A DNA stretch of 64,000 nucleotides. Source: a virus (lineage: Duplodnaviria; Caudoviricetes). The translations under genes and the position numbers were made by a program. The stretch lies in IMG/VR virus record IMGVR_UViG_3300006922_000005. One strand, given 5' to 3'. Positions within the stretch are counted from its first letter, which is position 1; the number at the start of each line of letters is the position of its first letter. Of the stretch, positions 14,540 to 37,840 are shown in pieces. The notes beneath the pieces are model-generated. The model was not told the origin of the DNA. It searched no databases and worked only from the letters and a program-made list of their open reading frames with translations.

Positions 14540-14840
14540 GAGTAACTGTAACAGTGCCCATGCCCTGTTTTACTTCAAACTTAACACCTTTATCATCGCC
14601 TACAATTTGAATGTCAGGACCACTAATACGCACAAGGTTAATCATTATATCGTAACGACTGCGTTTATCAGGGTTACTTAATATATCATATGCTTCTTTA
14701 ACTTTTTGAAAAACTTTTGGATCACCTTTTCTATCAGGGTGAGTTTTCATAGACAATTTTCTGTATGCTTCTTTAATTTCACTTTGAGAAGCACTAGCGT
14801 TAACGCCTAAAACTTTATATAAATTATCTTCTTGCGTCAT
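14532..14840 (-). CDS. Stand-alone J-domain (DnaJ-like) protein
   Basis: YKVLGV...[12 protein letters not shown]...HPD...F..VKEAY.ILS.P.KR.RYD. Confidence 0.9.
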
Positions 14841-15168
14841 AGAGCAAATCGATTTCAGTAATTGAAATTTTAGCGTCTACAAACGTACTATCTTCGCCGT
14901 ATTTAATTGGCTTAACTGCAATAAACCCACCGCGAACGTTTGGCATTATTTCAACACAGTTAGGTGGAATAATAAGATCATAATTTTCAGCAGTAATCAA
15001 TTCGTTTTGTGAATTTTCATCTGTTGTAAATCTTAAATGAAATGCCGAATTACTTGTTGCTACTCTTACTTGTTCAGTAAAGAATGGCCCCATTCTAAAA
15101 CTTGCATCACCTGTGACGTCTGTTACTTCATATACGTTGGTTGTATAAAATCTTTTAATCATGCTCAT
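14824..15168 (-). CDS. Hypothetical small beta-rich protein
   Basis: 114-aa ORF with a perfect TATAAATA at 15174-15181 immediately upstream. Confidence 0.65.
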
Positions 15169-15176
15169 ACAACTAT

Positions 15177-16673
15177 TTATATGTTCTTATACCATTTTGT
15201 GAGATAGTCATAATGGTTGTCTAAGTCACGCATTGTACGATCTATACGATAGTTTTCACTATCAACATAACTTTCTGAATATTTCAAATAATCATCGCTC
15301 ATAAAAGAAATACTTTTGTCATAAAAGTCACTGCCGTATAACATTTCAAACCATTGTCCTGTATGAAACATACTAGTGATTCCAGGTAGGAACATACTAT
15401 CTTTTGGACCGGGTACAAACATTTCTAACCTTTTCTTACATGTATCTGGAAGTTCTTTGCTTGTAACATCTCTCCAAAATTGTGTGTCTTTTCTAGAAGC
15501 AAATTTATAGTGTGTAAAAATAAAATCTCTAATTTCATAGTACATTGATAACCATTGATTATTAATATAATGTAAATTATCCTTACCCCATGCACCGTCA
15601 CTAAATCTTAAACTTTCTACTAAAAATTCAACTGACTTTGTAGTAAATGTTATTCCTGTTGCTTCTAATGGTTCTACAAATCCTGCACTTAATCCTATTG
15701 CTACTACATTATCGTGTGCAATACCTTCGTGTGTACCAATACGCATTTCTAAATGATTTGCAGGAGCATCAAACTCACCAATTGCTTCACGTAATTCTGC
15801 TTCTGCATTTTCTTTTGAACAGTATGCATCACTGTAAACATAGCCATTACCAATACGATCATAAGTTGGAATAGTCCAACGCCAACCGTTTTTCATAGTA
15901 GTTGCTTTTGTATAAGGATGACATTCTTCTTGTGGATTTTTATATTGTGTAGGAATAGCAACTGCTCTATTACATGGTAAATTTTCACTTTCGTCTATAT
16001 ATCTAACACCTAATGTTTTTCCTAATAATAAACTTTTAAATCCACTACAGTCTATGTATAAATCTGCGTGGTATTCAGCACCAGAAGCATCACGTAAACA
16101 TTTTATACCTTGTTCAAATGTATCTACTTCAGTAATTTCTGTGTCAACAATATCAATTTTATCTTTAATATTTTCTTTTACTGTTTCGCCAATTTTATGT
16201 GCATCAAAGTGTACAGCGTCCCATGATGGTGTAAGGAACCCGTGTGTAAAATCCATAACATGACTTAGTTTTGGAGATTTATTTGCTTTAGCAAGTTTAT
16301 AACTTTGTACAAAGTTGAAAAATTCTTTTTTACTTTTACCTAACCAATAATTAAATGTTGGAATTTCAGGACCTAATACAAAACTGCCATAATCGTCATT
16401 GTCTACAAAATAAGGTTCATCGCTCCAGCCGTTAAATTCTACACCTAACTTATATGTTGCTCTTGCAGATTTCATCCAATCAACTGGCTGTAATCCACAC
16501 TTACGTAAAAACTCTGTAGTGTAAGGTTGTGTACCTTCTCCTACTCCAACAATACCAATCTTACTACTTTCAATTAGTTGTATCTTTACTGCACCTGGTA
16601 TCGTGTTTCTTAAATATGCGGCTGTTAAGTATCCACTTGTTCCGCCACCTAATATACAAATATTTTTAATCAT
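15177..16673 (-). CDS. Flavin-dependent halogenase (tryptophan halogenase family)
   Basis: GGGTSG FAD motif, IGVGEGT, ATYKLG (position of the catalytic Lys), WRWTIP (WxWxIP), FVEPLEATG. Confidence 0.9.
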   Translation of the reverse strand: MIKNICILGGGTSGYLTAAYLRNTIPGAVKIQLIESSKIGIVGVGEGTQPYTTEFLRKCGLQPVDWMKSARATYKLGVEFNGWSDEPYFVDNDDYGSFVLGPEIPTFNYWLGKSKKEFFNFVQSYKLAKANKSPKLSHVMDFTHGFLTPSWDAVHFDAHKIGETVKENIKDKIDIVDTEITEVDTFEQGIKCLRDASGAEYHADLYIDCSGFKSLLLGKTLGVRYIDESENLPCNRAVAIPTQYKNPQEECHPYTKATTMKNGWRWTIPTYDRIGNGYVYSDAYCSKENAEAELREAIGEFDAPANHLEMRIGTHEGIAHDNVVAIGLSAGFVEPLEATGITFTTKSVEFLVESLRFSDGAWGKDNLHYINNQWLSMYYEIRDFIFTHYKFASRKDTQFWRDVTSKELPDTCKKRLEMFVPGPKDSMFLPGITSMFHTGQWFEMLYGSDFYDKSISFMSDDYLKYSESYVDSENYRIDRTMRDLDNHYDYLTKWYKNI

Positions 16674-17293
16674 TTTATCTCCGCATAGTTAAAGTGTTCT
16701 TGATTTCCTAATTTAGTCGGTAACATATTAAAACTAAGAGTATAGCGAGGCTTAGGTGTTATATTTTTTTCACTTCTGTGTTCAATATAACTAGGCCATA
16801 ATATTAATTTATTAGGCTCTGCTTTACTGCTTATTCTGTCTGTTAAAAACGGACTATTTCCATCTCTAGTAACACTAATTGTATTTCTCATTTTACTTAT
16901 CGGATTATAAAACTCTGTACCACCTTGATCAGGCGTACTATTCAAATAATATACTCCACTTAATAAACTGTTAGTATGTGTATGTGGTCCAATACTTTGA
17001 CTATTGCTAAATTTATTCATCCACATACTAGTAATGTATAAATTTTCAGGTTGATAACCTATTTTATTACAATATTCTAATCCACACTTAATAATTGTTT
17101 TAGTAAAGGATTCAAATGCTACATCTTCTTGTAGATTTTGTTTAGAAATCTGATACATAGGAAATTCTTCAAATCCTTGCTTATGATTTGTCCACTCTAC
17201 AGCATCAATCATATTATGAATATCCTGATCTGTAATATCAAGTTTAAATTCTACAAATCCTGTTGGAAATAATCCAATAGTATTAGATTCCAT
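16670..17293 (-). CDS. 2OG-Fe(II) oxygenase-like protein (HxH type)
   Basis: W.N...HTHTNSLLSGVYY...LWPSYIEH...RYTLSFN. Confidence 0.8.
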   Translation of the reverse strand: MESNTIGLFPTGFVEFKLDITDQDIHNMIDAVEWTNHKQGFEEFPMYQISKQNLQEDVAFESFTKTIIKCGLEYCNKIGYQPENLYITSMWMNKFSNSQSIGPHTHTNSLLSGVYYLNSTPDQGGTEFYNPISKMRNTISVTRDGNSPFLTDRISSKAEPNKLILWPSYIEHRSEKNITPKPRYTLSFNMLPTKLGNQEHFNYAEIK

Positions 17294-17924
17294 AATGTCT
17301 ACCTCTAGAGTTTTTACCTAAATTCTTTAGATTAAAAGTATATGGTATAACAATACGTTCTTGTAACTCTATTCTATTTGTAAAATTGTTTTGTCCTGTC
17401 ATATGCGGGATATCACTTCTAAAAATTACGCACTGTCCTGTTTTAGCAGGAACATAAAATTCGCCTTCAGTATCTACAGTTCGTTGTTTAAAGTCAGGTT
17501 GCCATGGTTGCCACTTTATATCAGGTTGAAGTAATCCTAGTGGAGCAGAACCTTCAGGTGCATGTAAATAATAGACTGTACTTAATAGTGTATTTGCATG
17601 TATGTGCGGTTTATGTGTACTTGCTCCTTGTTTACTTAACACTGCCCAACTGTTTGCAACAAATATATCGTCAACATCGATATCCCAACCTATACTGTCA
17701 GAAAATTTATGTACTTGTTCTATAAGCCAAGTATTCAGATGTTGCATTTCATCATGTTGATGAATACTTTCGTCAGTTACGTAACCTAAACCTTCACCGT
17801 TATCAATACTATTGTCTTTTTCAAGACGTTTTATTAAATTGTAAATATCTTTATGGTCATTACATTGATCAACAGAGCGTTGTGCAATACCAACATTAGT
17901 AGGCCATATAGAATTTACTTGCAT
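17283..17924 (-). CDS. 2OG-Fe(II) oxygenase-like protein (HxH type)
   Basis: HIHANTLLSTVYY...IFRSDIPH...R.VI.YTFN. Confidence 0.8.
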   Translation of the reverse strand: MQVNSIWPTNVGIAQRSVDQCNDHKDIYNLIKRLEKDNSIDNGEGLGYVTDESIHQHDEMQHLNTWLIEQVHKFSDSIGWDIDVDDIFVANSWAVLSKQGASTHKPHIHANTLLSTVYYLHAPEGSAPLGLLQPDIKWQPWQPDFKQRTVDTEGEFYVPAKTGQCVIFRSDIPHMTGQNNFTNRIELQERIVIPYTFNLKNLGKNSRGRHYGI

Positions 17925-18505
17925 TATAGAAACTCCTTGATATCTTTTTCAAAAAAGATTCCTTTATCATAGTATCCGTCATATCGTTGATCAGCATAAG
18001 GACCATTTGCGTCTACATAATGTAAAAATACTTGACCTAATTTATAATCCTCAATTTCGCATTTATTACGCCAATGCATTACTTCACAACCTTTGTATAA
18101 AACAGCATCTCCATCTTCTAAAAACACTTCTTTATCTTCAATAACAATAGGCCAGTTGCCTTTTCCGTTATCACGTAATTTTACAGTTAAACTATATTCA
18201 CATGCAGGTCTATCCCTATGCTTAGGCATAGCATTTCCAGTAGTATACAAACGTGCATATGTATATGTTGGAAATAATGATAAACCTGTAAGACCTTCTA
18301 CTTTTTTATGCATAAAATTTAGAAAAGCATCAAATGTTAAGTCTCCACTTCTTGGACCTAAACACCCAGGAACCATTTCGTCTCCTGTTTTTGCTTGTGG
18401 ATCTCCTTCTTTAATATAAACCTTAGTACTAAACTCTAAGTATTCATATAAGAAATGTGCTGTTTCAAGTTCAACAAAGTTTTTTATAAGTTTATACTGC
18501 TCCAT
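17924..18505 (-). CDS. 2OG-Fe(II) oxygenase (HxD type)
   Basis: TYARLY...KHRDRPACEYSLT...GDAVLYKGCEVMHWR...QVFLHYV. Start reassigned to MEQYK at 18505 (TAATG overlap). Confidence 0.8.
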   Translation of the reverse strand: MEQYKLIKNFVELETAHFLYEYLEFSTKVYIKEGDPQAKTGDEMVPGCLGPRSGDLTFDAFLNFMHKKVEGLTGLSLFPTYTYARLYTTGNAMPKHRDRPACEYSLTVKLRDNGKGNWPIVIEDKEVFLEDGDAVLYKGCEVMHWRNKCEIEDYKLGQVFLHYVDANGPYADQRYDGYYDKGIFFEKDIKEFL

Positions 18506-20211
18506 TAAGTAATATTTTCCCTTTTCTTTCTTAAAACAAAGATACCTAATCCATTCCAATAATCATCTGGATCTTCTCCAGTAGTTTGTAATTGTTTTTG
18601 AAATAATATTTTGTAATCTTTCTCTTTTATATGCTCATTGGTAGCATTTTGTATTTGTATCCAGTTCCAGTCATCCATAATCAATACAAAGGTCTCTTCA
18701 AACTTATCATAGTACCTTGATAAAAAGTTTTTTGTTTGTTCATATGTGTGATCTCCATCATAAAATACTATATTACTAGTATGTGGAATATTTGTCAAGT
18801 CTAAACTTTCAACAGGCTCATTAAAACCTAATACTCTATTTGGTCCTTTTACTTTGGACATATTATGTTGGAAGATCTTTAATGGATTACCATCTTTTCC
18901 TTGCCAACCATCTACTTCACGCATTGGTTCTATATCATTAGTGTGCCAACTATCAATACACACTGCTTGTATATTGTTTCCTTCTAATGCACTACAAAAT
19001 GTTGCACCATGCCATGTACCAATTTCTAAATATCTTACATCTTTTGTTTCACACAAGTTGTTTAAGAAATGCTTAATCTTATGACTAGTTAATCCTTCAA
19101 TTTGTAAGGTATTTTCAGACAACTTACTTGTATGGTCCATGCTTTTTTCAATAGCATTGTTAATTGAACTTATAAACTTATTTTTTGTTTTAGCACTTAC
19201 TACATCTTCGCAATAATGACATTTCCAGCAGTCAAATTTGCAATTTTTAATTTTATCACGCCATACTTTAATTGGTTTATTATCTAAATCACCAACATCA
19301 ATAAATTCATTAAAATTATCGAACAATATGTCTTGCTTACTTGCAAACCGTTCAACTAAATCCACTGTTTCCCATAATCTTTCAATTGACTCTCTGCCAT
19401 GCATCTTAAAAACATCAATTCCAGCGTCCATTAGTTCTACCCAGTCTTCTCTCCACGGAGTAAAGTTTGCTACTTTTAGTTGAGCGGCTGGATCCATAGC
19501 GTCCCATCTAGGACATGTAGGTTTAGATATTGGATCCATAAAGAAAGTAGGCGACATTGCTTCTTGTCTACTAAAATTAAACTCAAAATGTTCATCTTGT
19601 ACAGGACAATTACCCCAACACCCTTCATTGGCTAGTAAACTTATTTTAAAGTCAGGACAAATGTTCTTTCTTACGTATTCTTTGGCTTCTTTTATTTCTA
19701 AAAGTTTGTCTTTATCACGCATTAAGTCTCTATCTAAGTTTACGTAATAAAATCCTGCTTCTGCAAGTTTTACAACTTCGTTTGCACGTTGTACATTACG
19801 TAAAATTGTGTTTTTTACACGTAACTCAGGATATGCTTTTTGAATTGCTCCTTGTAACATCCACATAGTATGAGGAAGTGTTGCTATACGTACACCTGCT
19901 TCGTATAACGGTGCAAAGTTTTTAATCCATGTTTGTAAATTCTGCATAGTTGGTGGCACATTAATATTATTAAATGTTGCACTAACAGGTATGCCGATTA
20001 TTTCTTGTATTTGAACTGCGTTATCACTAATTGCTCCCCAATCGCCTTGATGGAAAACATCACCCATAGCGTCTTGGCCAAAAGGAGGTATACGACTAGT
20101 AAAGTATACATCATATATATACTTTTTATTTTTTTCTAAAAACGGAATAAATCGTTTTGTAAAACTATCGTAATCTAGTTTTGGATTCAGGGGAATCGAG
20201 AAGTTTTGCAT
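18505..20211 (-). CDS. Fusion of a U32-family (Fe-S hydroxylase-type) domain and a class I SAM-dependent methyltransferase
   Basis: N-half: NLDRDLMRD, LLANEGCWGNCP, GIDVFKMHGRE (compare U32 GVDSLKIEGR), CKFDCWKCHYC. C-half: YLEIGTWHG, FYDGDH, IMDDWNW. Start reassigned to MQNFSIPLNPKL at 20211. Confidence 0.7.
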   Translation of the reverse strand: MQNFSIPLNPKLDYDSFTKRFIPFLEKNKKYIYDVYFTSRIPPFGQDAMGDVFHQGDWGAISDNAVQIQEIIGIPVSATFNNINVPPTMQNLQTWIKNFAPLYEAGVRIATLPHTMWMLQGAIQKAYPELRVKNTILRNVQRANEVVKLAEAGFYYVNLDRDLMRDKDKLLEIKEAKEYVRKNICPDFKISLLANEGCWGNCPVQDEHFEFNFSRQEAMSPTFFMDPISKPTCPRWDAMDPAAQLKVANFTPWREDWVELMDAGIDVFKMHGRESIERLWETVDLVERFASKQDILFDNFNEFIDVGDLDNKPIKVWRDKIKNCKFDCWKCHYCEDVVSAKTKNKFISSINNAIEKSMDHTSKLSENTLQIEGLTSHKIKHFLNNLCETKDVRYLEIGTWHGATFCSALEGNNIQAVCIDSWHTNDIEPMREVDGWQGKDGNPLKIFQHNMSKVKGPNRVLGFNEPVESLDLTNIPHTSNIVFYDGDHTYEQTKNFLSRYYDKFEETFVLIMDDWNWIQIQNATNEHIKEKDYKILFQKQLQTTGEDPDDYWNGLGIFVLRKKRENIT

Positions 20212-20902
20212 TTTCTTGTACTGTGTCCTCAAGTTTTGGAACAATATCTACATTGTCCTTTTCTTTTAGCATGTTAATTAATTTCTGTTCAACATCTTTT
20301 TCAATAGCAACAATACCAGTTTCAAATTGTTTAGTATATTCTAATGCTCCGCGAATAATTTTATCTTGATCTGCATGAGGCATATGCATAATACTTTCAA
20401 GATTACCTGTACCAATTTTACCATATGAAAGCATTTCCATTGCCGCTTGTTTTCCCATACGTGAAATCCAATATTCTCGTTCTTTGGCTTCTTTATCATT
20501 TGACATGTCTAACATAGCATCTTTGTTAGGCATTAATGTTTTAAATTTCTTTAAAAATCGATCACGTTCTAAACGTACACCAGCAATCCTACGCTTGTTA
20601 CGTTCTAAATGATTTTCAAATTCTTCAATTTCAATCTCTAATAATTTTGATTTAGCAGGAGAAGTTTCTTGTTCAAGTTCTTCTTTTTTAATGTCAATTT
20701 CTGCTTGTTTTTTTCTGTCATCGAATGTACGATCTTCGATGGTTTGTGTTCTATGTTCAATCTCAACTAAACACTGTTTTGCTTTACGCCAATCAGTAAT
20801 GTTAGTATCTACAACATAACTATCCATTTGGTACTTACTGTACGCATAGTCAAAACCTAGCGAAAAGTCTATAATTTCATCGTTTGATAGTTCGTCAGAC
20901 AT
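20165..20902 (-). CDS. Coiled-coil protein, probably fibre-associated or a chaperone
   Basis: 245 aa with a long charged heptad region; GGAG SD; TAAATA at 20937-20942. Confidence 0.65.
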   Translation of the reverse strand: MSDELSNDEIIDFSLGFDYAYSKYQMDSYVVDTNITDWRKAKQCLVEIEHRTQTIEDRTFDDRKKQAEIDIKKEELEQETSPAKSKLLEIEIEEFENHLERNKRRIAGVRLERDRFLKKFKTLMPNKDAMLDMSNDKEAKEREYWISRMGKQAAMEMLSYGKIGTGNLESIMHMPHADQDKIIRGALEYTKQFETGIVAIEKDVEQKLINMLKEKDNVDIVPKLEDTVQENAKLLDSPESKTRLR

Positions 20903-20948
20903 GTTAACTCCTTATTAATAACATTAGTTATCAGAGTATTTAATGTGA

Positions 20949-21704
20949 CTAGATGTTCTTGAATAGTGTACGCATTGGAGTTACTTCTGCAACATCTTTA
21001 CCAAAATCAACTTCTAAGTATTTTTCAACAAATGCTTGTACTTGTGCTATTGTTGTACAGTTGTTTAATTCTTTGCGTAATTTTGTAGATACTGCTAACA
21101 CTTTGGCTACTTTTGTTTGATATTCTTCATTGTTTTTAATGATACTATCAGCAAAATTAGACGGTGTTACACCTTTTGCGTCAGCAAGTAATTTAAGTAA
21201 TGTACCTGTACTTCCGGATTCTTTGTATGCTAGTGCTTGTTGATATTGTAAATCCCATGTTTCTTTTTCAATAGGACCTCTATCTACATCAATTGCAGTG
21301 TATGCCATGTATGCAAATGTTGCAATTTTTCCTGTAATCCATGATTTATCATAATCTATAATCCAAGCCGCTTCAGAATTTGTCCATGGTAGTTTAGTTT
21401 TTTCCCATGTGTTACCTTCAGGGTCTCTGTCAGGCATTCCTGGTGCTGGTGTTTTAGTTGGTTTCCATGTATCAGAAATTTCACCAGTTTGATCACAAGT
21501 CCAATATTCGTTATAGGACTTCATAGAATTCGTTACACCTTTCTCATATGCTTCATCAGTAAACTTTTTAGCATATATAAAACTTGACCAGTCGATGTAT
21601 TCTAATGTTGCATCATTAATCTCTGCAACAATTCCACCAAACTCAGTTTTAATTGTTCTTATGTAACCGTTTTCTTGTTCTCTTCCAAAATATAATAATT
21701 TCAT
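20949..21704 (-). CDS. Putative tail-fibre assembly chaperone
   Basis: ETWDLQYQQALAY...LLKLLADAKG....FADSII resembles the helical domain of phage fibre-assembly proteins; starts 2 nt after the fibre gene stop. Confidence 0.55.
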   Translation of the reverse strand: MKLLYFGREQENGYIRTIKTEFGGIVAEINDATLEYIDWSSFIYAKKFTDEAYEKGVTNSMKSYNEYWTCDQTGEISDTWKPTKTPAPGMPDRDPEGNTWEKTKLPWTNSEAAWIIDYDKSWITGKIATFAYMAYTAIDVDRGPIEKETWDLQYQQALAYKESGSTGTLLKLLADAKGVTPSNFADSIIKNNEEYQTKVAKVLAVSTKLRKELNNCTTIAQVQAFVEKYLEVDFGKDVAEVTPMRTLFKNI

Positions 21705-21706
21705 TT

Positions 21707-24700
21707 TTAAATCCCTGTACTAAAGCACGCCCCTGATGAACATCCAGGCTGGCCTTTTGGTTGTAATGCACTTTGTCCACTTGATCCGTTACTCATACTA
21801 TCATTTGAATATGTAAGTTTCCAACTGTCGTTAGCCTGACCATTTGAACCCTGCCACATACCAACTGAATATCCTGCATCTTGACCCATTTGCATGTTAT
21901 GCTCACCCTGTGTGTTCTGACCATTCGGGAAGTTACCAATTGTACCTTGCGAACTGTCATTACTTGAGTTGACTTTTTCTAAGTTACGTGAGTTGTTTGG
22001 TGGCCCAATGTAGTAGTAACCATACTTACTTGTTAAGCCTTTTGAGTGAGTACCTTGTGTACCAAACATACCACTCCATGATTCTGTACTAAACGAAATC
22101 TTTCTGTGTGTACCATTCCAGTGATAACCAGCAGTACTACTCCATGCCGCTCCAACATAGTCAGAACTTAAACCTGAGTTGTTAACGTTTGTACGCATTG
22201 TTTCTGTAGAGTGATTCATAATGTCTGTATTAGCACTACCACCACCTGTGATTACACTAAACTGTGTATCATAGTTTGAAACACCGTGGTCATTACGTCC
22301 AGTACTCATGTTCAACGAACTATTATTGTAACCCTTACTACTATCGTTAGTCATATTAAATGCCCAACCTCTGTTAGAGTTTGTAGGATAACTTGGATCG
22401 TTACCCCATGACCAACCTGTTACATCACTATGTCCACCGTCCATATATGTACCTGGTTGACTCATTATGTTACCTAAGTTATTTGAAGTATCATTTGAGT
22501 GACTTGTTCTGTTAACGTTTGACCATGGAACTGAACTCTTATATCCACCTGCCATATAACCTCTGTTAATAACAGTTCTATATCTCCAAGTAGTTCTACC
22601 TTTAATATTAAACGTTACATCATCACTTGCTGGGAACGCCGCATCGTCTGTAACTCTAATAGTTACTGAACCTGTTCTGTCGTATGCTCTGTTCAACCAA
22701 CTGTGATTAATTGTACCACTAATCAAACCTGTTCCTGCATTTAAACTTAGACCGTTACTGAATAATCCTTCAGGGTCTGCTTGTACACTGTAACTAACTG
22801 TTTGTCCTGGATCTGGTTCATTTGCTGTAAGTTGGATACTTGTTGTACCGTATGTACTATCACTTGTTGTACCATCGTCACCACCCGGTGTTGTACCTGC
22901 TGTTGGTGATGTAAATGTTGGTGCAGTATTCTGTAAAATCTCTATTGAGTAAATTACATCAGTGTTTGTTGTACCATTTGTACCTTGTGAAGCAAATCTA
23001 ACTGTAAATGTTTTAGTTGTTGTACTTGGAACACTTGGTAATGTACCTGTAATTGCACCAGTTGCACTGTTCATTGTTAACGGACCGCCTTGGTCTGCAA
23101 ATAAACTTCCTGCATCAAGTATAACAGTGTAAGTAATTGTATCACCATCTGCATCTGTTGCTGTACAACTTGTAATATTAACTGTTGTAGTTTCTGAGAA
23201 ACTACCTAAACTACCTGCTGGTGTATTAGCAGTAGGAGCATTATCAATTTCAATACCTCTTGGTAATGTTGATTTAGATCCGTTTGTAGTTGTAAGTTCT
23301 ACATTGTATCTACCTGCCGCTAGTCCACTAAACACGCCTGCGCCTGTTTGTACTGTAATTTCCTGTTCACTTACATATGTAACTGAACTCAATGGAACTG
23401 TAATAGTACCAAATTTAACACCTGTTGGATCACTAAATTTATCACCTAAGATTTCAATTGTAGTGTCTACATCTGGATCAAATATGTTTGGTGTAATACT
23501 AACAATACTTAGACCAGCACCGCCTGATGTTGCCCATTCTGTACCGTTATAGAATTCAATTGTTTTTAAAGTAGTGTTATAACGTAACATACCTTCAATT
23601 GTTTCTGTTGGACGTTGGTTAGTTGCACCACGTGCAAGTACCAAAGCGTCTGTACCCATAAATCCTGATTTAACAAATTTGTATACAGCACCTTCTGTTG
23701 GCACACTGTTATCTGAAATATCTGTTAAGTTTGGATCTGTACTAAATTCGTTAATAGTAGCACCAGTTTTACCTGCTGTAATACTACCAAGTTGTAGTTC
23801 GTTCAAACCTGTTAAGTCAAATTCTTCTGACGATAGTGTTGCTCTACCAGTGGCCTGTTCAACCTTAAAGTAGTCACCAACTCTAAAGTTACCATCTTGG
23901 TCAGTGGTTACGTAGAATACTCTACCACCGTTTTGTGAAACAGTTTCTGCTTCTTGGTTTGGTGTTTGTCCGTAGTCTGCTTTAATAATAACTGGATAGT
24001 TAGTATCAGCAAATCCACCTGTACCAATGTCTAAGAAGTCATGTCCTGTCATACGTACCTGACTAAATGCTTCACGTATTGTTACTCTTGCACCTTCGTC
24101 TGGTGTTTTGTTACTTGGAACTTTTGGATCAACAGCAATGTTTGATGTACCATAATTTATTTTTGCTGGAGCCGCCGCTTTACCAATATTAATAATATCA
24201 ATTACTACTTGTACAAGTGCCTGTGCTCTAGCATCTGATCCTGCTTCTCTAACAAGTCCTGCGTCTGTAACCTGTGAAACTGCACCACGTACTGTTGTTG
24301 GTACTGTTTCGTTAATAACGTTACCAATAATAGTTTTCAAGTATGTGTTTGCCGCAACTGTTTCTGCTTTTTGTGTTGTAATTGCATATCTTGCTGATGG
24401 ACTTGAATAATATGAATAACCAGCATCAACTGATTGACCATTTGATGCTGTGTCTAAATCAAATAGTACTGCATCAATAATTAATCCTGTATCACGTCTA
24501 CATAATGCTGTGTCATACACCAATGATGGATATGTTGCATCAATATATTGAATAACTTCTTCTTGTAAGAATTCTTTGTTAGCATTAAGCAATGCATAAG
24601 CATTTGGATCATTTCCAGTTACAAATGTAGGTTGTTGGTAACCACTTGTAGAAATAATAAAGTAAGTTTCACTATCTCCATCAATAAATGCTACCGAACC

Positions 24701-27700
24701 ATCTTTAATTGGTCTTGTTAAACCGTCAACTGTGAAACTAATACCTGTACCAATACTAGCAAAACCTTGTCTAGTTGCTTGGATCGATAATACTTTTTCT
24801 GGTGAGTTATCAACAACACCGTTTGTATCTGTAAGTGCAAGTGTTGCATCACTAAAGTCCATATCATGGAATTTGTAATCTAAAATAGTTGCATCTTCAA
24901 TAGTAGGTGTAACTGTAATATAATTGTATGCTCCACTTGAATCATCTAGTGTACCAAAGCCACCACCTGTTCTTGTAAAGTTAAAGTAACCTGCATTATT
25001 ACCGTTAGTCATACCTGCCATAATCAAGTTTACACCATCAATGGAGATACTGTTTAATTCTACACCTGAATCGTTATCTGATAATTCTCTACTAAATGCA
25101 TGTATACCTGTTGAATCAAAACTTGAAATCAAACCATTGTATACATTAGATCCTGCAACTGTTTCAATAGAACCAACTGCATAAAGTTCATCACCTAATG
25201 GAGTAACTGCTTTATAACGTCCTGTTTTTAATGAAGCATATTGTTTTTGCCACGCAACTTCACCATCTAATCTAATTCTTGCAAGAATTGGGTTATCATA
25301 TGTGTTAACTGTTGGAGGTGATCTCATCTCTGCATTTTCACCATTTACAAATGTTCCACTTGTAATGTTAACATCAATAATGTGCTGGTTACCTGTAACA
25401 CCTTGGTTAGCAACTATTGTTGCAACTCCAGTACCACTACTGAATAAACTATAACCTACTGTAATATTAGCATCTTGATCTAGTGTTGCTCCACCTGTAT
25501 CAAAAGCAATTCTAACAGATCCACCTTGACCACCGCCAATGTTTACGTTAGCAACTGTAGTTGCTGTTGATCCTGAATATGTTAACTGTGTTTGTGGGTA
25601 AGCATATGAAGTAACACTTCTTACATACTGTCCACCAACTGCAAAGTATAAACCATCTTCACCAGTATTGTCAAATTTCATATCAAACATACTATAGTCG
25701 CCTAAGTGGAAACTCTTAACGTAGTTTCCGTTTGAATCATATGCTACAATACCTGTTTCGTTTGCAGTAGTATCGTTAAATCCTAAAAATACTTTTCCTT
25801 CTAAGTCTGCCGCACCTTCTGTTACGTATGTTACGGTACTTGATAAACTTTCTCTACCAAATGCTAGACTTACAACGTCAATTGAGTTAGTTGTACTACC
25901 ATCATAGTTGATAGTTTCACTCCATTGTATTACACCACCATTTGATAATTTAGCAAGTGTTGCACCTGCTGTTGAGTGATTACCTGCTATGTATAATGCT
26001 TGACCTTCGTCATGTACCATACCTGTAATATTATCTGTAGCAGAAATAACTTTCTGCCATTGTATTTCACCTAGTCTTGTAAACTTAACAATAAAACCTT
26101 TGTATACACTGTTTTGATAAATTCTACCTGCCGCATAATATCCGCCTGCAGTATCTTCACATACACAATTAAGTTCTCCTGGGAAACCAACGTTATCACT
26201 TGTTGGAGCACCTAGTGTTTGTTGCCAATCTAATGTGTTACCTGTCCATCTTGCAAAATACATGTAAGATGATGACTGTTGGAAAGTTGCATAGTTTGTA
26301 CCTGAGTACCCTGGTGCTGTATGACCAACTGCAAAAATATCACCTGTTGAATCTTTAAACGAAGTATTAAATGTTACATCATGTTGTACTTCTTGAATAG
26401 CGTTTAGTTCTTGTGTTGCTAATCTAATATGTCCTGTTAATGGTGTTTCTGCTTGTGAAAAACCATCTGCTCTAACAGCAAATTCTCCATATGCACTTGA
26501 ACCGTTAACTGAACGAATCTTACCACCGCTTTCTGCTAGGTAACCTACATCACAATAATATGTAAACACTGACACAAGTTCTGAACGTCCGTCATTTAGT
26601 GCGTGTACACCAATACCATCGGAGTTAATTTGTGTCCAGTCATTTGCAACCATACTCTTATAACCACCATTGTGTAGAGCACCGTCAATTTTCATTCCAG
26701 TACCACCTGGTGTAAAGTTTGTACAGTTTTGTACGTATGGCGACTGTGAAGTAATCCATACGCTAGTATCGTTTGGTCCAGTACCTGGATCTAACTGTGC
26801 TTGTACACTACCAGTACTAAAGTTTCTAAATACAATGTTACGTAATCTTGCACCATTGTTCATTTGGAATACTGCGGAGTTAGCATTTGGAGTAGATCCG
26901 TCATCGGATATACCAACACCAAAACCATTGTCATTTGTTGTATCAGGTTGTACATCAACAGCACCTAAGCCGCCGCCTTCTACAACAATACCTTTACCAA
27001 CTCTAATTGGACATTGTTCTGTATATGATCCAGAAGCAATAGCAATAATACTTTGGCCTCTGTTGAATACTGTATCACAAGCATGTCTAATTGTTTTCCA
27101 TGCTGTTGCTGGTGTTCTACCATCGTTTGAATCATCACCTTGTGGCGATACAAAATAATCTTGTTGTGGAGTTTGAGCACCCCATTTTACATCAGTTCCA
27201 TCACTGTATAAGTATGAACCTGCTGGTCCAATTGCTAGTGGAACGTTTCCAACTGTACCTCTAACAACCATGTCACCACGTGTTGTAGTAATAGTACTTG
27301 CATCACCTTGTGCAACTAGACTCCAATCACTTGCTGAAACATTAGGAGTATCACCAATTGTTTCTCTTAGTGCGATATAAGAACTTAAATTATATTCTAC
27401 AACATCATCTGTATAGTATGTTGTTGTTGCATTATATTGTCCATTCCATTTCATACCTGGAAGGAATGTTGACCATATACCGCCACCACTTGCTGGATCA
27501 CTTGGGTTATTAGAAAGTGTAGAAGTGTGTACTACTTGTGCTTCCCATAATCTACCACCTTCTAATACAATATCACCTGGATAGTATTCTGTAGTATCTT
27601 GCCAAATTCCTTTATATTCAAAGGCTTCAACAAACACATCATAATATTGTGTAGTTGTTGGTGTTGTACCTACTGGTGGAGTTTGTCCTTGTTTAACAAT

Positions 27701-28843
27701 ATATCTTTTTGCTCCATACTTAATAACGTCACCAGCGGAGTAAACTGTAGTATTATCCCATGTACCTCTTTCATTATAAGAAGTTGCAAAGATATCCCAG
27801 TTGTTTGTTTCTGTTGGTGCTACGCCTGCAGAGTCATTTTTAGCAATGTAAAGATAACCACCGTATGTAACAATGTCTTGGAAGAAATAACTTTCTGAAG
27901 AATTATAAGCACCTCTCCAACCTGCGCCTGCGGCAACTAATGCCCAGTAAACTGAACTTTCACTAACAGTAATTGTTGACCAATCATCGTTAGTTGCTTG
28001 TTCAGTCATGTCAGGATGGTTATGACAGTACCAATATAAAGTATCTGGTGAACTTTGTGGTACAGTAATTCTTACTTGTCTTGTTGTTGCGGCATCAAAG
28101 CCTGCTAGGTATTGTGTTCTACCTAATTGTAATTGTCCGTCTAAATAATATTCAACACCTTCTTCGTATACTGCTCCACCTGCGTGTGAACCATTTCCTG
28201 TTCTTGAAAATAGTATTGGGTGTCCGTTGTTAGTACCACTATCTTGATTAAAGATATAAGTGTTACCTTCAGTAAACGCTAAGTCTGGTGCTTGTGTTCC
28301 GTCTACAAAATATCTGTTACCACCTGTGCCACCTAAAGTATCAACATTAACAGTAATAGTGTATGTAGTAGCGGATGGGGCGCCACCTGGTTTATTACTA
28401 CCTGTTGTGTGTTGAAGATTTAAGTAAAGTGAATTTCCGTAAGTTACTAGGTTACCAATATTATATTCTGATGCGTTATTATATTCGCCATCATATTGTA
28501 AACCTGAAATATATAAGTTTGAATTTGTACTAGTAGAACTTTCAAAGTTTGCTCCCGCAGTGTGTCCTGTAAGTACAATATAAACGTTTGATTTATATTT
28601 TACAATATCACCTGGTTTGTAAACTGTTGCTGTTACCCAATCACCTTTCCAGTCAGTACCGCCTGCCATTTTTTCAAGTTTATCACTTGATAAATCTGCT
28701 TCGACATTTGAAGAAGTGTGATTTTCTTTTACTACATATGATATACCACCATGTAGTACTACATCGTCTTTAATGTATGAGTAGCCTGTTACCCAAGCGC
28801 CTCTCCATTTAAACTTAATTCTACCTAGATTAAAATCTGCCAT
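21707..28843 (-). CDS. Giant tail fibre/spike protein A (2378 aa)
   Basis: N-terminal W...T.Y..GD.V.Y.G..Y repeats; YFVSPQGDDSNDG plus a probable beta-helix; propeller-like region; FSQVRMTGHDFLDIGTG; Ig-like domains; Asn/Gly/Ser-rich tip. Confidence 0.85.
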   Translation of the reverse strand: MADFNLGRIKFKWRGAWVTGYSYIKDDVVLHGGISYVVKENHTSSNVEADLSSDKLEKMAGGTDWKGDWVTATVYKPGDIVKYKSNVYIVLTGHTAGANFESSTSTNSNLYISGLQYDGEYNNASEYNIGNLVTYGNSLYLNLQHTTGSNKPGGAPSATTYTITVNVDTLGGTGGNRYFVDGTQAPDLAFTEGNTYIFNQDSGTNNGHPILFSRTGNGSHAGGAVYEEGVEYYLDGQLQLGRTQYLAGFDAATTRQVRITVPQSSPDTLYWYCHNHPDMTEQATNDDWSTITVSESSVYWALVAAGAGWRGAYNSSESYFFQDIVTYGGYLYIAKNDSAGVAPTETNNWDIFATSYNERGTWDNTTVYSAGDVIKYGAKRYIVKQGQTPPVGTTPTTTQYYDVFVEAFEYKGIWQDTTEYYPGDIVLEGGRLWEAQVVHTSTLSNNPSDPASGGGIWSTFLPGMKWNGQYNATTTYYTDDVVEYNLSSYIALRETIGDTPNVSASDWSLVAQGDASTITTTRGDMVVRGTVGNVPLAIGPAGSYLYSDGTDVKWGAQTPQQDYFVSPQGDDSNDGRTPATAWKTIRHACDTVFNRGQSIIAIASGSYTEQCPIRVGKGIVVEGGGLGAVDVQPDTTNDNGFGVGISDDGSTPNANSAVFQMNNGARLRNIVFRNFSTGSVQAQLDPGTGPNDTSVWITSQSPYVQNCTNFTPGGTGMKIDGALHNGGYKSMVANDWTQINSDGIGVHALNDGRSELVSVFTYYCDVGYLAESGGKIRSVNGSSAYGEFAVRADGFSQAETPLTGHIRLATQELNAIQEVQHDVTFNTSFKDSTGDIFAVGHTAPGYSGTNYATFQQSSSYMYFARWTGNTLDWQQTLGAPTSDNVGFPGELNCVCEDTAGGYYAAGRIYQNSVYKGFIVKFTRLGEIQWQKVISATDNITGMVHDEGQALYIAGNHSTAGATLAKLSNGGVIQWSETINYDGSTTNSIDVVSLAFGRESLSSTVTYVTEGAADLEGKVFLGFNDTTANETGIVAYDSNGNYVKSFHLGDYSMFDMKFDNTGEDGLYFAVGGQYVRSVTSYAYPQTQLTYSGSTATTVANVNIGGGQGGSVRIAFDTGGATLDQDANITVGYSLFSSGTGVATIVANQGVTGNQHIIDVNITSGTFVNGENAEMRSPPTVNTYDNPILARIRLDGEVAWQKQYASLKTGRYKAVTPLGDELYAVGSIETVAGSNVYNGLISSFDSTGIHAFSRELSDNDSGVELNSISIDGVNLIMAGMTNGNNAGYFNFTRTGGGFGTLDDSSGAYNYITVTPTIEDATILDYKFHDMDFSDATLALTDTNGVVDNSPEKVLSIQATRQGFASIGTGISFTVDGLTRPIKDGSVAFIDGDSETYFIISTSGYQQPTFVTGNDPNAYALLNANKEFLQEEVIQYIDATYPSLVYDTALCRRDTGLIIDAVLFDLDTASNGQSVDAGYSYYSSPSARYAITTQKAETVAANTYLKTIIGNVINETVPTTVRGAVSQVTDAGLVREAGSDARAQALVQVVIDIINIGKAAAPAKINYGTSNIAVDPKVPSNKTPDEGARVTIREAFSQVRMTGHDFLDIGTGGFADTNYPVIIKADYGQTPNQEAETVSQNGGRVFYVTTDQDGNFRVGDYFKVEQATGRATLSSEEFDLTGLNELQLGSITAGKTGATINEFSTDPNLTDISDNSVPTEGAVYKFVKSGFMGTDALVLARGATNQRPTETIEGMLRYNTTLKTIEFYNGTEWATSGGAGLSIVSITPNIFDPDVDTTIEILGDKFSDPTGVKFGTITVPLSSVTYVSEQEITVQTGAGVFSGLAAGRYNVELTTTNGSKSTLPRGIEIDNAPTANTPAGSLGSFSETTTVNITSCTATDADGDTITYTVILDAGSLFADQGGPLTMNSATGAITGTLPSVPSTTTKTFTVRFASQGTNGTTNTDVIYSIEILQNTAPTFTSPTAGTTPGGDDGTTSDSTYGTTSIQLTANEPDPGQTVSYSVQADPEGLFSNGLSLNAGTGLISGTINHSWLNRAYDRTGSVTIRVTDDAAFPASDDVTFNIKGRTTWRYRTVINRGYMAGGYKSSVPWSNVNRTSHSNDTSNNLGNIMSQPGTYMDGGHSDVTGWSWGNDPSYPTNSNRGWAFNMTNDSSKGYNNSSLNMSTGRNDHGVSNYDTQFSVITGGGSANTDIMNHSTETMRTNVNNSGLSSDYVGAAWSSTAGYHWNGTHRKISFSTESWSGMFGTQGTHSKGLTSKYGYYYIGPPNNSRNLEKVNSSNDSSQGTIGNFPNGQNTQGEHNMQMGQDAGYSVGMWQGSNGQANDSWKLTYSNDSMSNGSSGQSALQPKGQPGCSSGACFSTGI

Positions 28844-28867
28844 GTTCTATTACCCATCCTTATTTAT

Positions 28868-29242: not shown

Positions 29243-29279
29243 AATAGTATCTCCGTTGTAAACTTAAAAGTATTTATGC

Positions 29280-37839: not shown

Positions 37840-37840
37840 A

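What the first reader, a model, noticed from the sequence alone, without database searches (positions are those of the whole stretch)
15177..28843. Candidate virion-tailoring operon: fibre, chaperones, U32/methyltransferase, three oxygenases and a halogenase in one coupled late unit
Seen: fibre A is followed on the same strand by a fibre-chaperone-like gene and a coiled-coil gene (TAAATA at 20937-20942). Then come the U32/MTase fusion, three 2OG-Fe(II) oxygenases and a flavin halogenase, linked by a 47-nt overlap, TAATG (18505, 17924), an 11-nt overlap and ATGA (16670-16673). I saw no terminator in the run. Known: these enzyme families hydroxylate, methylate and halogenate small molecules, RNA or peptides, and such oxygenases and halogenases occur unexplained in marine T4-like phages. 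Inference: late timing and coupling to fibre assembly genes fit a RiPP-like post-translational modification system acting on the fibre tip or other virion proteins better than host-metabolism genes do.
Basis: partly seen in the sequence, partly recalled or inferred. Interest (0 to 1): 0.82.

Follow-up and report, generated by a model that had tools for sequence, protein, structure and literature searches.

The report
Fibre-linked tailoring enzyme genes, cyanophage
In an uncultured marine T4-like cyanophage, a giant tail-fibre gene is followed, probably in one late transcription unit, by a chaperone-like gene, a helper gene, an unusual iron-sulfur/methyltransferase fusion, three oxygenases and a halogenase. 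This linkage recurs in dozens of related phages, so it gives a testable but unproven guess at what these long-unexplained phage enzymes act on.

Summary
Gene order, the four start/stop overlaps and all enzyme identities are confirmed. The "U32" half is U32-like by fold only, not by sequence.

The core is a conserved cassette: a fibre-tip domain (the last 290 aa of fibre A), a Tfa-like chaperone, a charged helper protein, and a U32-like/O-methyltransferase fusion (T4-GC 351-354).
- In IMG/VR loci, 66/66 have the helper and 51/52 have the tip domain upstream of the fusion.
- In 50,697 phage records, tip, helper and fusion each hit 123 cyanophage records with the same taxon breakdown.
- The P-HM2 orthologues are late genes (published data).
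- A halogenase and/or 2OG oxygenases follow the fusion in 50/58 loci. The nearest halogenases sit beside it in 20/20.

The window has late-promoter motifs only before fibre A and after the halogenase.

The RiPP-like virion-modification reading is only partly supported. No precursor peptide is visible and no chemistry has been shown. The same site also collects ordinary metabolic genes (petE, gnd in S-ShM2). Known U32/O-methyltransferase pairs act on tRNA or quinones.

The enzyme island itself is published (Iyer 2010; Sullivan 2010). This scan has flagged the same pattern on other DNA. Virion-protein tailoring is my best reading (about 0.4). It is a new variant of a known kind.

The parts
28861..28871 (-). 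Late-promoter-like motif (two overlapping ATAAATA) 24-28 nt upstream of the fibre A start
   Evidence: The window holds only 12 ATAAATA against about 45 expected, and nearly all lie 12-70 nt upstream of gene starts.
21707..28843 (-). Fibre A, 2378 aa giant tail-fibre-like protein with three N-terminal CBM_5_12 modules
   Evidence: PF02839 x3; phrog_9851 tail fibre, E 7e-158.
21707..22588 (-). C-terminal tip domain of fibre A (residues about 2086-2378; phrog_1417 / T4-GC 351, 'sericin-like'); a separate gene in most relatives
   Evidence: It lies 1.5-2 kb upstream of the fusion in 51/52 loci.
20949..21704 (-). p251, tail-fibre-assembly-like protein (T4-GC 352 position)
   Evidence: AF2 model pLDDT 88.9. 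AFDB cluster hits are DUF4376, phage tail protein and lambda gpK-type assembly protein. Atlas features point to Caudo_TAP/HI1402_helical. A homologue is present in most relatives, sometimes after CC245.
20165..20902 (-). CC245, charged helper protein (phrog_1409 / T4-GC 353), overlapping the fusion gene by 47 nt
   Evidence: It lies upstream of the fusion in 66/66 loci, with a 29-68 nt overlap in 35/75 loci.
19177..20211 (-). Fusion protein, N-terminal U32-like TIM-barrel domain with invariant Cys198, Cys202, Cys233 and a C-x3-C-x2-C-x2-C cluster (324-334)
18505..19132 (-). Fusion protein, C-terminal class I O-methyltransferase-like domain (Methyltransf_24)
   Evidence: The top structural neighbours are all cation-dependent O-methyltransferases, including TrmR.
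17924..18505 (-). Oxy1, Syn9-gp54-type 2OG-Fe(II) dioxygenase-like protein (mis-named 'ferrochelatase' in PHROGs and RefSeq)
   Evidence: Iyer et al. 2010.
17283..17924 (-). Oxy2, 2OG-Fe(II) oxygenase (PF13759)
16670..17293 (-). Oxy3, 2OG-Fe(II) oxygenase (PF13759)
15177..16673 (-). Flavin-dependent tryptophan-halogenase-family enzyme
15174..15181 (-). Perfect TATAAATA 13 nt upstream of orf114; marks the start of the next late unit, so the run from fibre A to the halogenase has no internal full late-promoter motif
14532..15168 (-). orf114 (unknown) and a 102-aa J-domain (DnaJ) protein, downstream neighbours kept in close relatives
13184..13783 (-). Oxy0, a fourth 2OG-Fe(II) oxygenase-like gene just outside the finding
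33743..39113 (+). Second enzyme island inside the fibre cluster: a carbamoyltransferase plus P4H-like (PF13640) and PF13759 oxygenases. Homologues of its first two genes flank the more distant viral halogenases.

Best explanation
The stretch is the distal-fibre maturation module of a T4-like cyanomyovirus, probably transcribed late as one unit from the promoter in front of fibre A.

Its fixed core is a four-part cassette: the fibre-tip domain, a Tfa-like chaperone, a helper protein, and a U32-like Fe-S / O-methyltransferase fusion. Its variable tail is a set of tailoring enzymes, here three 2OG-Fe(II) oxygenases and a flavin halogenase.

Most likely these enzymes act in the infected cell, late, on a phage-made protein, probably the fibre tip or another exposed virion protein.
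- The fusion would hydroxylate an sp2 carbon and then O-methylate it.
- The oxygenases would hydroxylate side chains.
- The halogenase would halogenate Trp or Tyr.
The result would be a changed surface chemistry of the receptor-binding end.

Shown: gene identities, coupling, conserved linkage, co-occurrence, and late expression of the cassette orthologues. Inferred: co-transcription in this phage, the protein substrate, and every chemical step.
For: 1. Linkage. In 79 IMG/VR loci at 44-100% identity, the helper lies upstream in 66/66, the tip domain in 51/52, and a halogenase and/or 2OG oxygenase within 3 kb downstream in 50/58. The same holds in S-CAM4, S-RIM2 and P-HM2.
2. Co-occurrence. Among 50,697 phage records, tip, helper and fusion each hit 123 cyanophage records with an identical 77/38/8 taxon breakdown.
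3. Retention under rearrangement. The set is kept even though p251 can move and S-ShM2 has a 6-kb insert.
4. Gene fusion. The tip domain is fused to a giant fibre here but is a separate gene elsewhere.
5. Translational coupling. The helper and fusion genes overlap in 35/75 loci.
6. Timing. PHM2_098-101 are Late, whereas AMGs are Middle (Thompson 2016, S1 Table and text).
7. Promoters. Late-promoter motifs occur only before fibre A and after the halogenase. In relatives they lie before the tip gene and the helper.
8. Halogenase placement. The closest halogenases (42-55%) are beside the fusion in 20/20 loci. On the fusion tree the halogenase label needs only 2 changes, so the adjacency is old.
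9. Enzyme type. PF13640 P4H-like oxygenases, a family that includes protein hydroxylases, sit in the same fibre cluster.
10. Active site. VirX1, the characterised cyanophage halogenase, has a large open active site and no known natural substrate.
11. Selection. 2OG oxygenase genes mutate together with receptor-binding genes in two cyanophage adaptation/coevolution experiments.
Against: - No modified residue has been reported in any cyanophage virion.
- Oxygenases and halogenases were not found in the virion proteomes of Syn9, S-SM1, S-PM2 or S-SCSM1. That fits enzymes, but gives no positive support.
- Oxygenase and halogenase content is variable. Syn9-type phages have them without the cassette.
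- The slot also takes ordinary AMGs such as petE and gnd, so position may only reflect tolerance to insertion.
- T4-like structural gene order is conserved anyway, and the co-occurrence may partly reflect common descent.
- Characterised U32 enzymes act on tRNA, rRNA or quinones.
- Ralstonia jumbo phages carry the N-domain alone next to a transporter-like gene.
- No expression data exist for the halogenase or the oxygenases.
Confidence: 0.4

Rival explanations
1. Secondary-metabolite pathway. The oxygenases, the halogenase and the hydroxylase/O-methyltransferase act in series on a free amino acid, a small peptide or an aromatic metabolite in the infected cell, making a halogenated, hydroxylated compound. 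Their place beside the fibre genes is incidental.
For: Iyer et al. 2010 proposed exactly this for the Syn9 cluster of 10 dioxygenases and 2 halogenases. Halogenases and 2OG oxygenases cluster with each other even far from the cassette: 18/29 of the remote halogenase loci have an oxygenase within 3 kb. A NodU/CmcH-type carbamoyltransferase, a family known from small-molecule pathways, sits in the second island. The halogenase is closest in sequence to free-tryptophan halogenases (PyrH, E 3e-75). VirX1 accepts many small aromatics.
Against: There is no scaffold-forming enzyme (NRPS, PKS, ATP-grasp) and no exporter in the unit. Timing is late, when a metabolite has little time to act. This reading does not explain the strict co-occurrence and coupling of the fusion with a fibre-tip domain and a chaperone-like gene.
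Confidence: 0.25
2. Nucleic-acid modification. The fusion is a one-protein version of the TrhP plus TrmR pathway and makes 5-hydroxy- then 5-methoxy-uridine in tRNA (or a similar mark on rRNA or DNA) to help translate AT-rich late genes. The 2OG oxygenases are AlkB-like repair or base-modifying enzymes.
For: The only characterised pairing of a U32-type enzyme with a CCoAOMT-like O-methyltransferase known to me is the tRNA ho5U-to-mo5U route (own knowledge). TrhP, TrhP1/2 and RlhA are among the best N-domain fold matches, and TrmR is among the best C-domain matches. Weigele and Sullivan suggested DNA repair for the cyanophage 2OG oxygenases. The phage is AT-rich, at 32-38% GC.
Against: A translation factor has no reason to co-occur one-to-one with a particular fibre-tip domain or to overlap a fibre-module helper gene. 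There is no sequence-level similarity to PF01136 or to UbiU/UbiV. The window has no tRNA genes. The oxygenases belong to PF13759, PF13640 and the gp54 type, not AlkB. A flavin halogenase has no known nucleic-acid role.
Confidence: 0.15
3. Hitch-hiking auxiliary genes. The oxygenases and the halogenase are independent morons lodged in a hyperplastic slot between the fibre and neck modules. Each has its own host-directed role, for example drawing down 2-oxoglutarate to steer NtcA-dependent expression, and none relates to the others or to the fibre.
For: Sullivan et al. 2010 proposed 2OG and nitrogen signalling roles and list these genes as sporadic host-like genes. Content varies between relatives. 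The same slot holds petE and gnd in S-ShM2. RNA-library contigs from four studies join 17236 to 14702, which suggests natural variants lacking the halogenase segment.
Against: The halogenase has stayed next to the fusion across deep divergence (20/20 loci, 2 changes on the tree). Start/stop overlaps are tight throughout. Published AMGs are middle genes, whereas this block lies in late territory. Unrelated dioxygenase families are repeatedly assembled together with halogenases, which Iyer et al. read as selection for a common pathway.
Confidence: 0.12

Closest known systems
Syn9/Syn10-type cyanophage dioxygenase-halogenase cluster (Syn9 gp41-gp54; Iyer, Abhiman, de Souza and Aravind 2010, PMC2938197; VirX1 of Syn10)
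   Same: Tandem, mutually distant 2OG-Fe(II) dioxygenases plus tryptophan-halogenase-family enzymes on the structural strand of a T4-like cyanomyovirus, directly downstream of fibre and fibre-assembly genes. Oxy1 is a gp54 homologue. The halogenase matches VirX1 at E 2e-59.
   Different: Syn9 lacks the tip/chaperone/helper/U32-like-methyltransferase cassette. The window has only three oxygenases in this run and one halogenase, at 32% identity. The published reading is secondary-metabolite synthesis, not virion modification.
T4-GC 351-354 of cyanomyoviruses (P-SSM4, P-HM2, Syn19, Syn33, S-ShM2; Sullivan et al. 2010, PMC3037559)
   Same: Same four gene families in the same order, at 26-45% identity. 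The same 47-nt helper/fusion overlap is seen in P-HM2. The cassette is late-expressed in P-HM2.
   Different: All four are listed there only as hypothetical proteins or 'sericin-like'. In those isolates the tip is a separate gene and no halogenase follows the fusion. The fusion-plus-halogenase arrangement was seen here only in uncultured contigs.
TrhP/TrhP1-TrhP2 with TrmR (tRNA ho5U to mo5U), RlhA, and UbiU/UbiV with UbiG: U32-type O2-independent Fe-S hydroxylases followed by O-methylation
   Same: U32-like barrel (5d88 Z 14.0; MJ1657, TrhP, TrhP1/2, RlhA by Foldseek) joined to a CCoAOMT/TrmR-like O-methyltransferase. Invariant cysteines are suited to an Fe-S cluster. The chemical logic is hydroxylate, then methylate.
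   Different: No detectable sequence similarity to PF01136 or to UbiU/UbiV. There is an extra C-x3-C-x2-C-x2-C cluster. The two activities are fused in one chain. The setting is a late fibre module, not a translation or quinone operon. The substrate is unknown.
Bacterial operons pairing beta-hydroxylase/PhyH dioxygenases and sulfotransferases with T4 tail-collar or collagen-like proteins (Iyer et al. 2010); giant-virus collagen/fibril hydroxylases (mimivirus L230, PBCV-1 prolyl 4-hydroxylase; own knowledge)
   Same: Dioxygenases are encoded next to fibre-like or collagen-like proteins that are proposed, or for the giant-virus enzymes reported (own knowledge), to be their substrates. This is the nearest precedent for enzymatic tailoring of a fibre-type protein.
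   Different: The enzyme families and the follow-up chemistry differ (sulfation or glycosylation). The window's fibres have no collagen-like G-X-Y runs apart from the glycine-rich p530. None of these systems includes a halogenase or a U32-like enzyme.

Membership tests
Flavin-dependent tryptophan-halogenase family (PF04820) | Full-length match to the family model above the curated cut-off | tested here: met
   357 bits against a cut-off of 21, E 1.8e-106, residues 4-453. PyrH E 3e-75 and VirX1 E 2e-59.
Flavin-dependent tryptophan-halogenase family (PF04820) | GxGxxG FAD motif, WxWxIP motif and the catalytic lysine | tested here: met
   G9-G10-G11-x2-G14, K75 and W264-x-W266-x-I268-P269 are invariant or nearly so across 11 viral homologues. 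Equating K75 with PrnA K79 rests on position, not on a structure.
Flavin-dependent tryptophan-halogenase family (PF04820) | Partner flavin reductase supplying FADH2 | not tested
   None was seen among the window genes that I scanned. The whole genome is not held, and a host enzyme could serve.
2OG-Fe(II) oxygenase superfamily | Match to a superfamily model above the curated cut-off | tested here: met
   Oxy3: 65.3 bits. Oxy2: 51.5 bits. Both against PF13759, cut-off 27. Oxy1 has no Pfam hit but is homologous to Syn9 gp54 (E 5e-20), and one homologue carries PF13640.
2OG-Fe(II) oxygenase superfamily | HxD/E...H iron triad | tested here: met
   Oxy1: H96, D98 and H144 are invariant in 25 homologues. 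Not checked residue by residue for Oxy2 and Oxy3.
Peptidase U32 / U32-type Fe-S hydroxylases (PF01136; TrhP, RlhA, UbiU, UbiV) | Sequence match to the family model or to characterised members | tested here: not met
   No PF01136 hit at E up to 10. hhalign against E. coli UbiU and UbiV gave probabilities of 3.7% and 0.2%. Ten distant members of the N-domain family carry no Pfam domain.
Peptidase U32 / U32-type Fe-S hydroxylases (PF01136; TrhP, RlhA, UbiU, UbiV) | U32 barrel fold | tested here: met
   5d88 (U32 peptidase Mk0906): Z 14.0, rmsd 3.6, 226 of 247 residues, and the only non-methyltransferase in the top 50 of 48,161 chains. MJ1657: E 9e-11, TM 0.71 by hit. TrhP, TrhP1/2, PrtC and RlhA follow. 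The model has pLDDT 83.5.
Peptidase U32 / U32-type Fe-S hydroxylases (PF01136; TrhP, RlhA, UbiU, UbiV) | Four conserved cysteines ligating a 4Fe-4S cluster; prephenate-dependent hydroxylation | tested here: inconclusive
   C198, C202, C233 and C324/C328/C331/C334 are invariant. Their equivalence to the U32 ligands could not be established without a residue-level alignment. The chemistry is not testable with these tools.
Cation-dependent class I O-methyltransferases (CCoAOMT/COMT/TrmR type; PF13578, PF01596) | Family model match and fold | tested here: met
   PF13578: 34.4 bits against a cut-off of 26.3. The eleven best structural neighbours are all O-methyltransferases (Z 14.8-16.6), including TrmR at Z 15.5.
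Cation-dependent class I O-methyltransferases (CCoAOMT/COMT/TrmR type; PF13578, PF01596) | Acidic/Asn metal-binding residues next to the SAM site | tested here: inconclusive
   D485, H488, D513, D514 and N516 are invariant. They resemble the D-x-D and D-N motifs of the family as I recall them. No residue-level superposition was available.
RiPP biosynthetic systems | Short precursor-peptide gene, with leader and core, inside or beside the enzyme genes | tested here: not met
   The run from 28843 to 15177 is gap-free apart from 2 and 46 nt spacers, with no small ORF between genes. The only small neighbour is orf114, which has no family match. No recognition-element domain was found by Pfam.
Tail-fibre assembly proteins (Tfa / Caudo_TAP / DUF4376) | Sequence or fold match, and position directly after the fibre gene | tested here: inconclusive
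   No Pfam hit. The predicted fold (pLDDT 88.9) hits DUF4376 proteins, 'phage tail protein' and a lambda gpK-type assembly protein at E 1.6e-5 to 2.4e-3, TM 0.4-0.6. Atlas features lean to Caudo_TAP/HI1402_helical at 0.88-0.91. The position requirement is met.
T4-type late transcription unit | TATAAATA-type late promoter upstream, and late expression | tested here: inconclusive
   ATAAATA motifs lie at -24/-28 of fibre A and none occur inside the run. The orthologues PHM2_096-103 are Late in published RNA-seq. No timed data exist for this phage. RNA-library contigs cover the run but cannot show timing or single transcripts.
Syn9-type cyanophage dioxygenase-halogenase cluster (Iyer et al. 2010) | Several mutually distant dioxygenases plus a tryptophan-halogenase-family gene in tandem in a T4-like cyanophage | tested here: met
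   Oxy1 (gp54 type), Oxy2 and Oxy3 (PF13759) and the halogenase are in tandem. The phage is T4-like and cyanophage-related.

The most novel reading that the evidence does not exclude
Marine cyanomyoviruses chemically tailor the receptor-binding tip of a tail fibre. A divergent U32-like Fe-S enzyme fused to an O-methyltransferase, held in a cassette with the tip domain and its chaperone, installs a hydroxyl and then a methoxy group on an aromatic residue. The linked 2OG oxygenases and a flavin halogenase add hydroxyl and halogen marks. This would be, to my knowledge, the first protein substrate for a U32-type enzyme, the first halogenated virion protein, and the natural role of VirX1-like viral halogenases.
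Probability: 0.25. Interest if true: 0.9.

Novelty: new variant of a known kind. Interest (0 to 1): 0.6.

Why it matters
Cyanomyoviruses are among the most abundant viruses in the ocean. Their many 2OG-Fe(II) oxygenases (up to 24 per genome) and halogenases have had no demonstrated function since they were first noted in 2005-2010. Current papers still file them as metabolic genes whose function "has not been specifically investigated".

The linkage shown here names a concrete candidate substrate, the T4-GC 351 fibre-tip protein. Several cultured phages carry the core cassette: P-HM2, P-SSM4, S-RIM2, S-CAM4, Syn19, Syn33 and S-ShM2. The question can therefore be settled with virion mass spectrometry and gene deletions.

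If the reading is true, host recognition by these phages would depend on enzymatic surface chemistry as well as on fibre sequence. That would bear on host-range evolution and would give viral halogenases and U32-type enzymes a new class of substrate. If it is false, the block is still a well-defined late gene set whose product, a metabolite or a nucleic-acid mark, remains to be found.

Tried and rejected
- Sequence searches of the fusion and of Oxy1 against PDB chains found nothing. A profile of 25 Oxy1 homologues against PDB gave only a chance hit.
- hhalign of the fusion alignment against single E. coli UbiU and UbiV sequences gave no alignment, so the Cys ligands could not be mapped.
- A profile of the N-domain against 1.84 billion representatives found 411 relatives. 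Many are stand-alone proteins of 330-450 aa. Ten distant ones have no Pfam domain, so there is no sequence bridge to PF01136.
- The contexts of two stand-alone relatives were uninformative: one lies next to an S8 peptidase and Calx-beta proteins, the other next to ribonucleotide reductase.
- Foldseek of p251 against PDB gave nothing below E 0.1.
The converse of the linkage test therefore rests on the 123/123/123 record counts. These have identical taxon breakdowns, but I could not list all the records to prove that the sets are the same.
- No whole genome is held for the window.
- The Syn9 transcriptome paper (Doron et al. 2016) is not held, so no timing data for halogenase or oxygenase genes were obtained.
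- Four metatranscriptome runs were laid on 13000-30000. Contigs cover fibre A at 95-99% identity. In one run (a 90-95% relative) they cover the whole enzyme run and bridge gene junctions. Contigs cannot show strand, timing or single transcripts, and DNA carry-over is possible. I draw no conclusion from the lower cover over the enzyme genes.
- Collagen-like repeats as prolyl-hydroxylase targets: none in fibre A, fibre B or the 972-aa fibre, one short run in fibre C, and several only in the glycine-rich p530.
- The sigma-70-type promoter scan gave fewer sites than shuffles (67 vs 76.6) and was not used.

Full report
**What the window is.** The window comes from an uncultured marine T4-like cyanomyovirus. 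Its sheath, neck, baseplate-connector and fibre genes match PHROG structural families. The best DNA and protein matches among 50,697 phage records are Synechococcus and Prochlorococcus myoviruses, at only 30-45% amino-acid identity. GC content is 30-42%. Identical or near-identical sequence is present in IMG/VR contigs and in marine metagenome runs. No whole genome is held.

**Observation.** The minus strand carries, without real gaps:
- fibre A (21707-28843, 2378 aa)
- p251 (20949-21704)
- CC245 (20165-20902)
- a 568-aa fusion protein (18505-20211)
- Oxy1 (17924-18505), Oxy2 (17283-17924), Oxy3 (16670-17293)
- a halogenase (15177-16673)

I read each junction directly. There is a 47-nt overlap of CC245 and the fusion, TAATG at 18505 and 17924, an 11-nt overlap and ATGA.

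**Enzyme identities.**
- The halogenase is a full-length PF04820 member (E 1.8e-106). It has the FAD motif, the catalytic lysine and WxWxIP conserved. PyrH, Thal, BrvH and VirX1 are its solved relatives.
- Oxy2 and Oxy3 are PF13759 oxygenases.
- Oxy1 has no Pfam match. It is homologous to Syn9 gp54, which Iyer et al. 2010 class as a classical 2OG dioxygenase, and it keeps an invariant HxD...H. The PHROG/RefSeq name 'ferrochelatase' is a mis-annotation.
- The C-half of the fusion is a Methyltransf_24 domain. Its eleven closest structural neighbours are all O-methyltransferases of the CCoAOMT/COMT/TrmR type.
- The N-half of the fusion has no sequence match to anything named. Its AlphaFold model (pLDDT 83.5) picks the U32 peptidase Mk0906 as the only non-methyltransferase hit among the top 50 of 48,161 chains (Z 14.0). 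It also picks MJ1657, TrhP, TrhP1/2, PrtC and RlhA in Swiss-Prot models. It is therefore U32-like by fold, with seven invariant cysteines, but it is not a demonstrable PF01136 member.
- p251 folds confidently (pLDDT 88.9) and resembles DUF4376/tail-fibre-assembly proteins.

Terminator-like sites are not enriched.

ATAAATA, the core of the T4-type late promoter, occurs only 12 times in the window against about 45 expected. Almost every copy lies 12-70 nt upstream of a start codon. Copies lie at 28867/28871 in front of fibre A, at 29277, and as a perfect TATAAATA at 15181 in front of orf114. None lies between 15182 and 28866. By this criterion the run from fibre A to the halogenase is one late unit. 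In relatives the motif sits before the tip gene and before the helper, and not before the fusion when the two overlap.

**Linkage in relatives.** A scan of IMG/VR with the fusion alignment returned 79 loci at 44-100% identity. I mapped the window's proteins onto them.
- The helper CC245 is upstream on the same strand in 66 of 66 loci with enough flank.
- The last 290 residues of fibre A (phrog_1417) are upstream in 51 of 52.
- A halogenase (24 loci), a 2OG oxygenase (37 loci) or both (11 loci) lie within 3 kb downstream in 50 of 58.

In most relatives the tip domain is a separate 450-490-aa gene. Here, and in the closest relatives, it is fused to a giant fibre, which ties it to the fibre. A p251-like gene is nearly always present but can sit before or after the helper. 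The helper and fusion genes overlap by 29-68 nt in 35 of 75 loci.

The same cassette is annotated as T4-GC 351-354, all 'hypothetical' or 'sericin-like', in S-CAM4, S-RIM2, P-HM2, S-ShM2, P-SSM4, Syn19 and Syn33.

Across the whole phage collection, the tip domain, the helper and the fusion each hit 123 cyanophage records with the same 77/38/8 breakdown. The fusion has three extra hits to Ralstonia jumbo phages that carry the N-domain alone.

**From the halogenase side.** The 20 informative loci with the closest halogenases (42-55%) all have it next to the fusion. More distant viral halogenases sit beside homologues of the first genes of the window's second enzyme island (P4H-like PF13640 oxygenases). 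In 13 of 29 of those loci, recognisable fibre pieces lie within 10 kb. On a tree of 52 fusion proteins, the presence of a halogenase needs only two changes. The adjacency is therefore old and has been kept while both proteins diverged to about 45-50% identity.

**Expression.** In P-HM2, PHM2_096-103, which include the cassette orthologues PHM2_098-101, are classed Late in light and dark, whereas the auxiliary metabolic genes are Middle (Thompson et al. 2016, PMC5082946, text and S1 Table). I found no accessible timing data for halogenase or oxygenase genes. Contigs of four marine metatranscriptome runs cover the region and bridge several gene junctions. They cannot show timing, strand or single transcripts.

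**What is known.**
- Iyer et al. 2010 described the Syn9 array of ten dioxygenases and two halogenases and proposed synthesis of halogenated metabolites. For bacterial operons that pair dioxygenases with T4 tail-collar or collagen-like proteins, they proposed that those proteins are the substrates.
- Sullivan et al. 2010 list prnA, the 2OG oxygenases and the 'ferrochelatase-domain' protein as sporadic host-like genes. They suggest roles in 2OG/nitrogen signalling or DNA repair.
- None of these enzymes appears in the virion proteomes of Syn9, S-PM2, S-SM1 or S-SCSM1.
- VirX1 of Syn10 has an unusually open active site and no known natural substrate.
- Two experimental-evolution studies found 2OG oxygenase genes mutated alongside receptor-binding genes (Enav et al. 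2018; bioRxiv 10.64898/2026.10.08.757702).
- In Syn9 the halogenases and oxygenases again follow the fibre and fibre-assembly genes, but without the cassette.
- Earlier follow-ups in this scan reached similar descriptions on other genomes. The pattern has therefore been found before by the scan.

**Reading.** Three points are well supported.
1. There is a conserved, co-inherited, late cassette of fibre tip, chaperone-like protein, helper and U32-like/O-methyltransferase fusion.
2. A variable set of oxygenases and halogenases is attached to it with long-standing linkage.
3. In this phage the whole set is coupled and lacks internal late promoters.

The substrate is inferred. I favour a phage-made protein, most simply the tip domain (about 0.4). 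The fusion's one-to-one co-occurrence and coupling with fibre-module genes is hard to explain otherwise. The timing is late, and the oxygenase families include protein hydroxylases.

Several points count against this reading, and no modification has ever been seen.
- The slot also collects petE and gnd in S-ShM2.
- Structural gene order in T4-like phages is conserved for other reasons.
- Characterised U32/O-methyltransferase pairs work on tRNA or quinones.
- The N-domain occurs alone beside a transporter-like gene in Ralstonia jumbo phages.

'RiPP-like' is not apt, because there is no precursor-peptide gene or recognition element. The rivals are a small-molecule pathway (0.25), nucleic-acid modification (0.15) and unrelated hitch-hiking genes (0.12).

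**Novelty and interest.** The gene families and their clustering near cyanophage fibre genes are published. Two things are not in the papers I could read: the U32-like nature of T4-GC 354, and its strict association with a fibre-tip/chaperone cassette and with the nearest halogenases. They make an old open question directly testable in cultured phages. I rate it a new variant of a known kind, interest 0.6.

Noticed in passing
window 33743-39113 (+) and 39110-39619 (-): A second enzyme island is inverted inside the fibre cluster. It holds a NodU/CmcH-type carbamoyltransferase (35585-37246), two PF13640 P4H-like oxygenases (33743-34582; 39110-39619), two PF13759 oxygenases and two unassigned genes. 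Homologues of its first two genes are the usual neighbours of the more distant viral halogenases.
   Followed up: partly
window, whole: ATAAATA is strongly depleted (12 copies against about 45 expected on both strands), and almost every copy lies 12-70 nt upstream of a start codon. This gives a usable late-promoter map of the window.
   Followed up: partly
window 14702 and 17236: Contigs from four metatranscriptome runs of different studies join 17236 (inside Oxy3) to 14702 (inside the J-domain gene) with three letters between. This suggests related natural genomes in which the halogenase-orf114 segment is absent or differently arranged.
   Followed up: no
window 14532-15168 (-): A 102-aa J-domain (DnaJ) protein and an unknown 114-aa protein lie behind a perfect TATAAATA directly after the halogenase. 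J-domain genes recur near the halogenase/fibre region in several relatives (L006, L058, L059, L096, L099).
   Followed up: no
window 29280-30821 (-); locus L166 7588-10785: A subtilase (Peptidase_S8) gene sits among the fibre genes. In a 110-kb metagenomic contig, a stand-alone relative of the U32-like domain is also followed by a large S8 peptidase and Calx-beta proteins.
   Followed up: no
locus L084 (Ralstonia phage RP12) 6983-9056: Ralstonia jumbo phages RP12 and RP31 carry the U32-like domain alone (40% identity, no methyltransferase). In RP12 it lies next to a DUF401/CitMHS transporter-like gene, a context unrelated to fibres.
   Followed up: partly
window 13892-14539 (+): A DUF6065 protein is encoded on the opposite strand between Oxy0 and the J-domain gene. 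Weak homologues recur just downstream of the halogenase in several relatives (L089, L095, L096, L100, L102).
   Followed up: no
window 28546-28642 and neighbourhood (fibre A residues about 69-100 and two further copies): Fibre A starts with three CBM_5_12 carbohydrate-binding modules rich in Trp and Tyr. Other first-stage notes point to cupredoxin-like motifs in the same N-terminal region. I did not examine those.
   Followed up: no
locus L164 (S-ShM2) 11635-17381: In S-ShM2/S-RIM14, four oxygenase-like genes plus petE, gnd and a zwf fragment are inserted between the helper and the fusion. The cassette's interior is therefore itself an insertion hot spot.
   Followed up: partly
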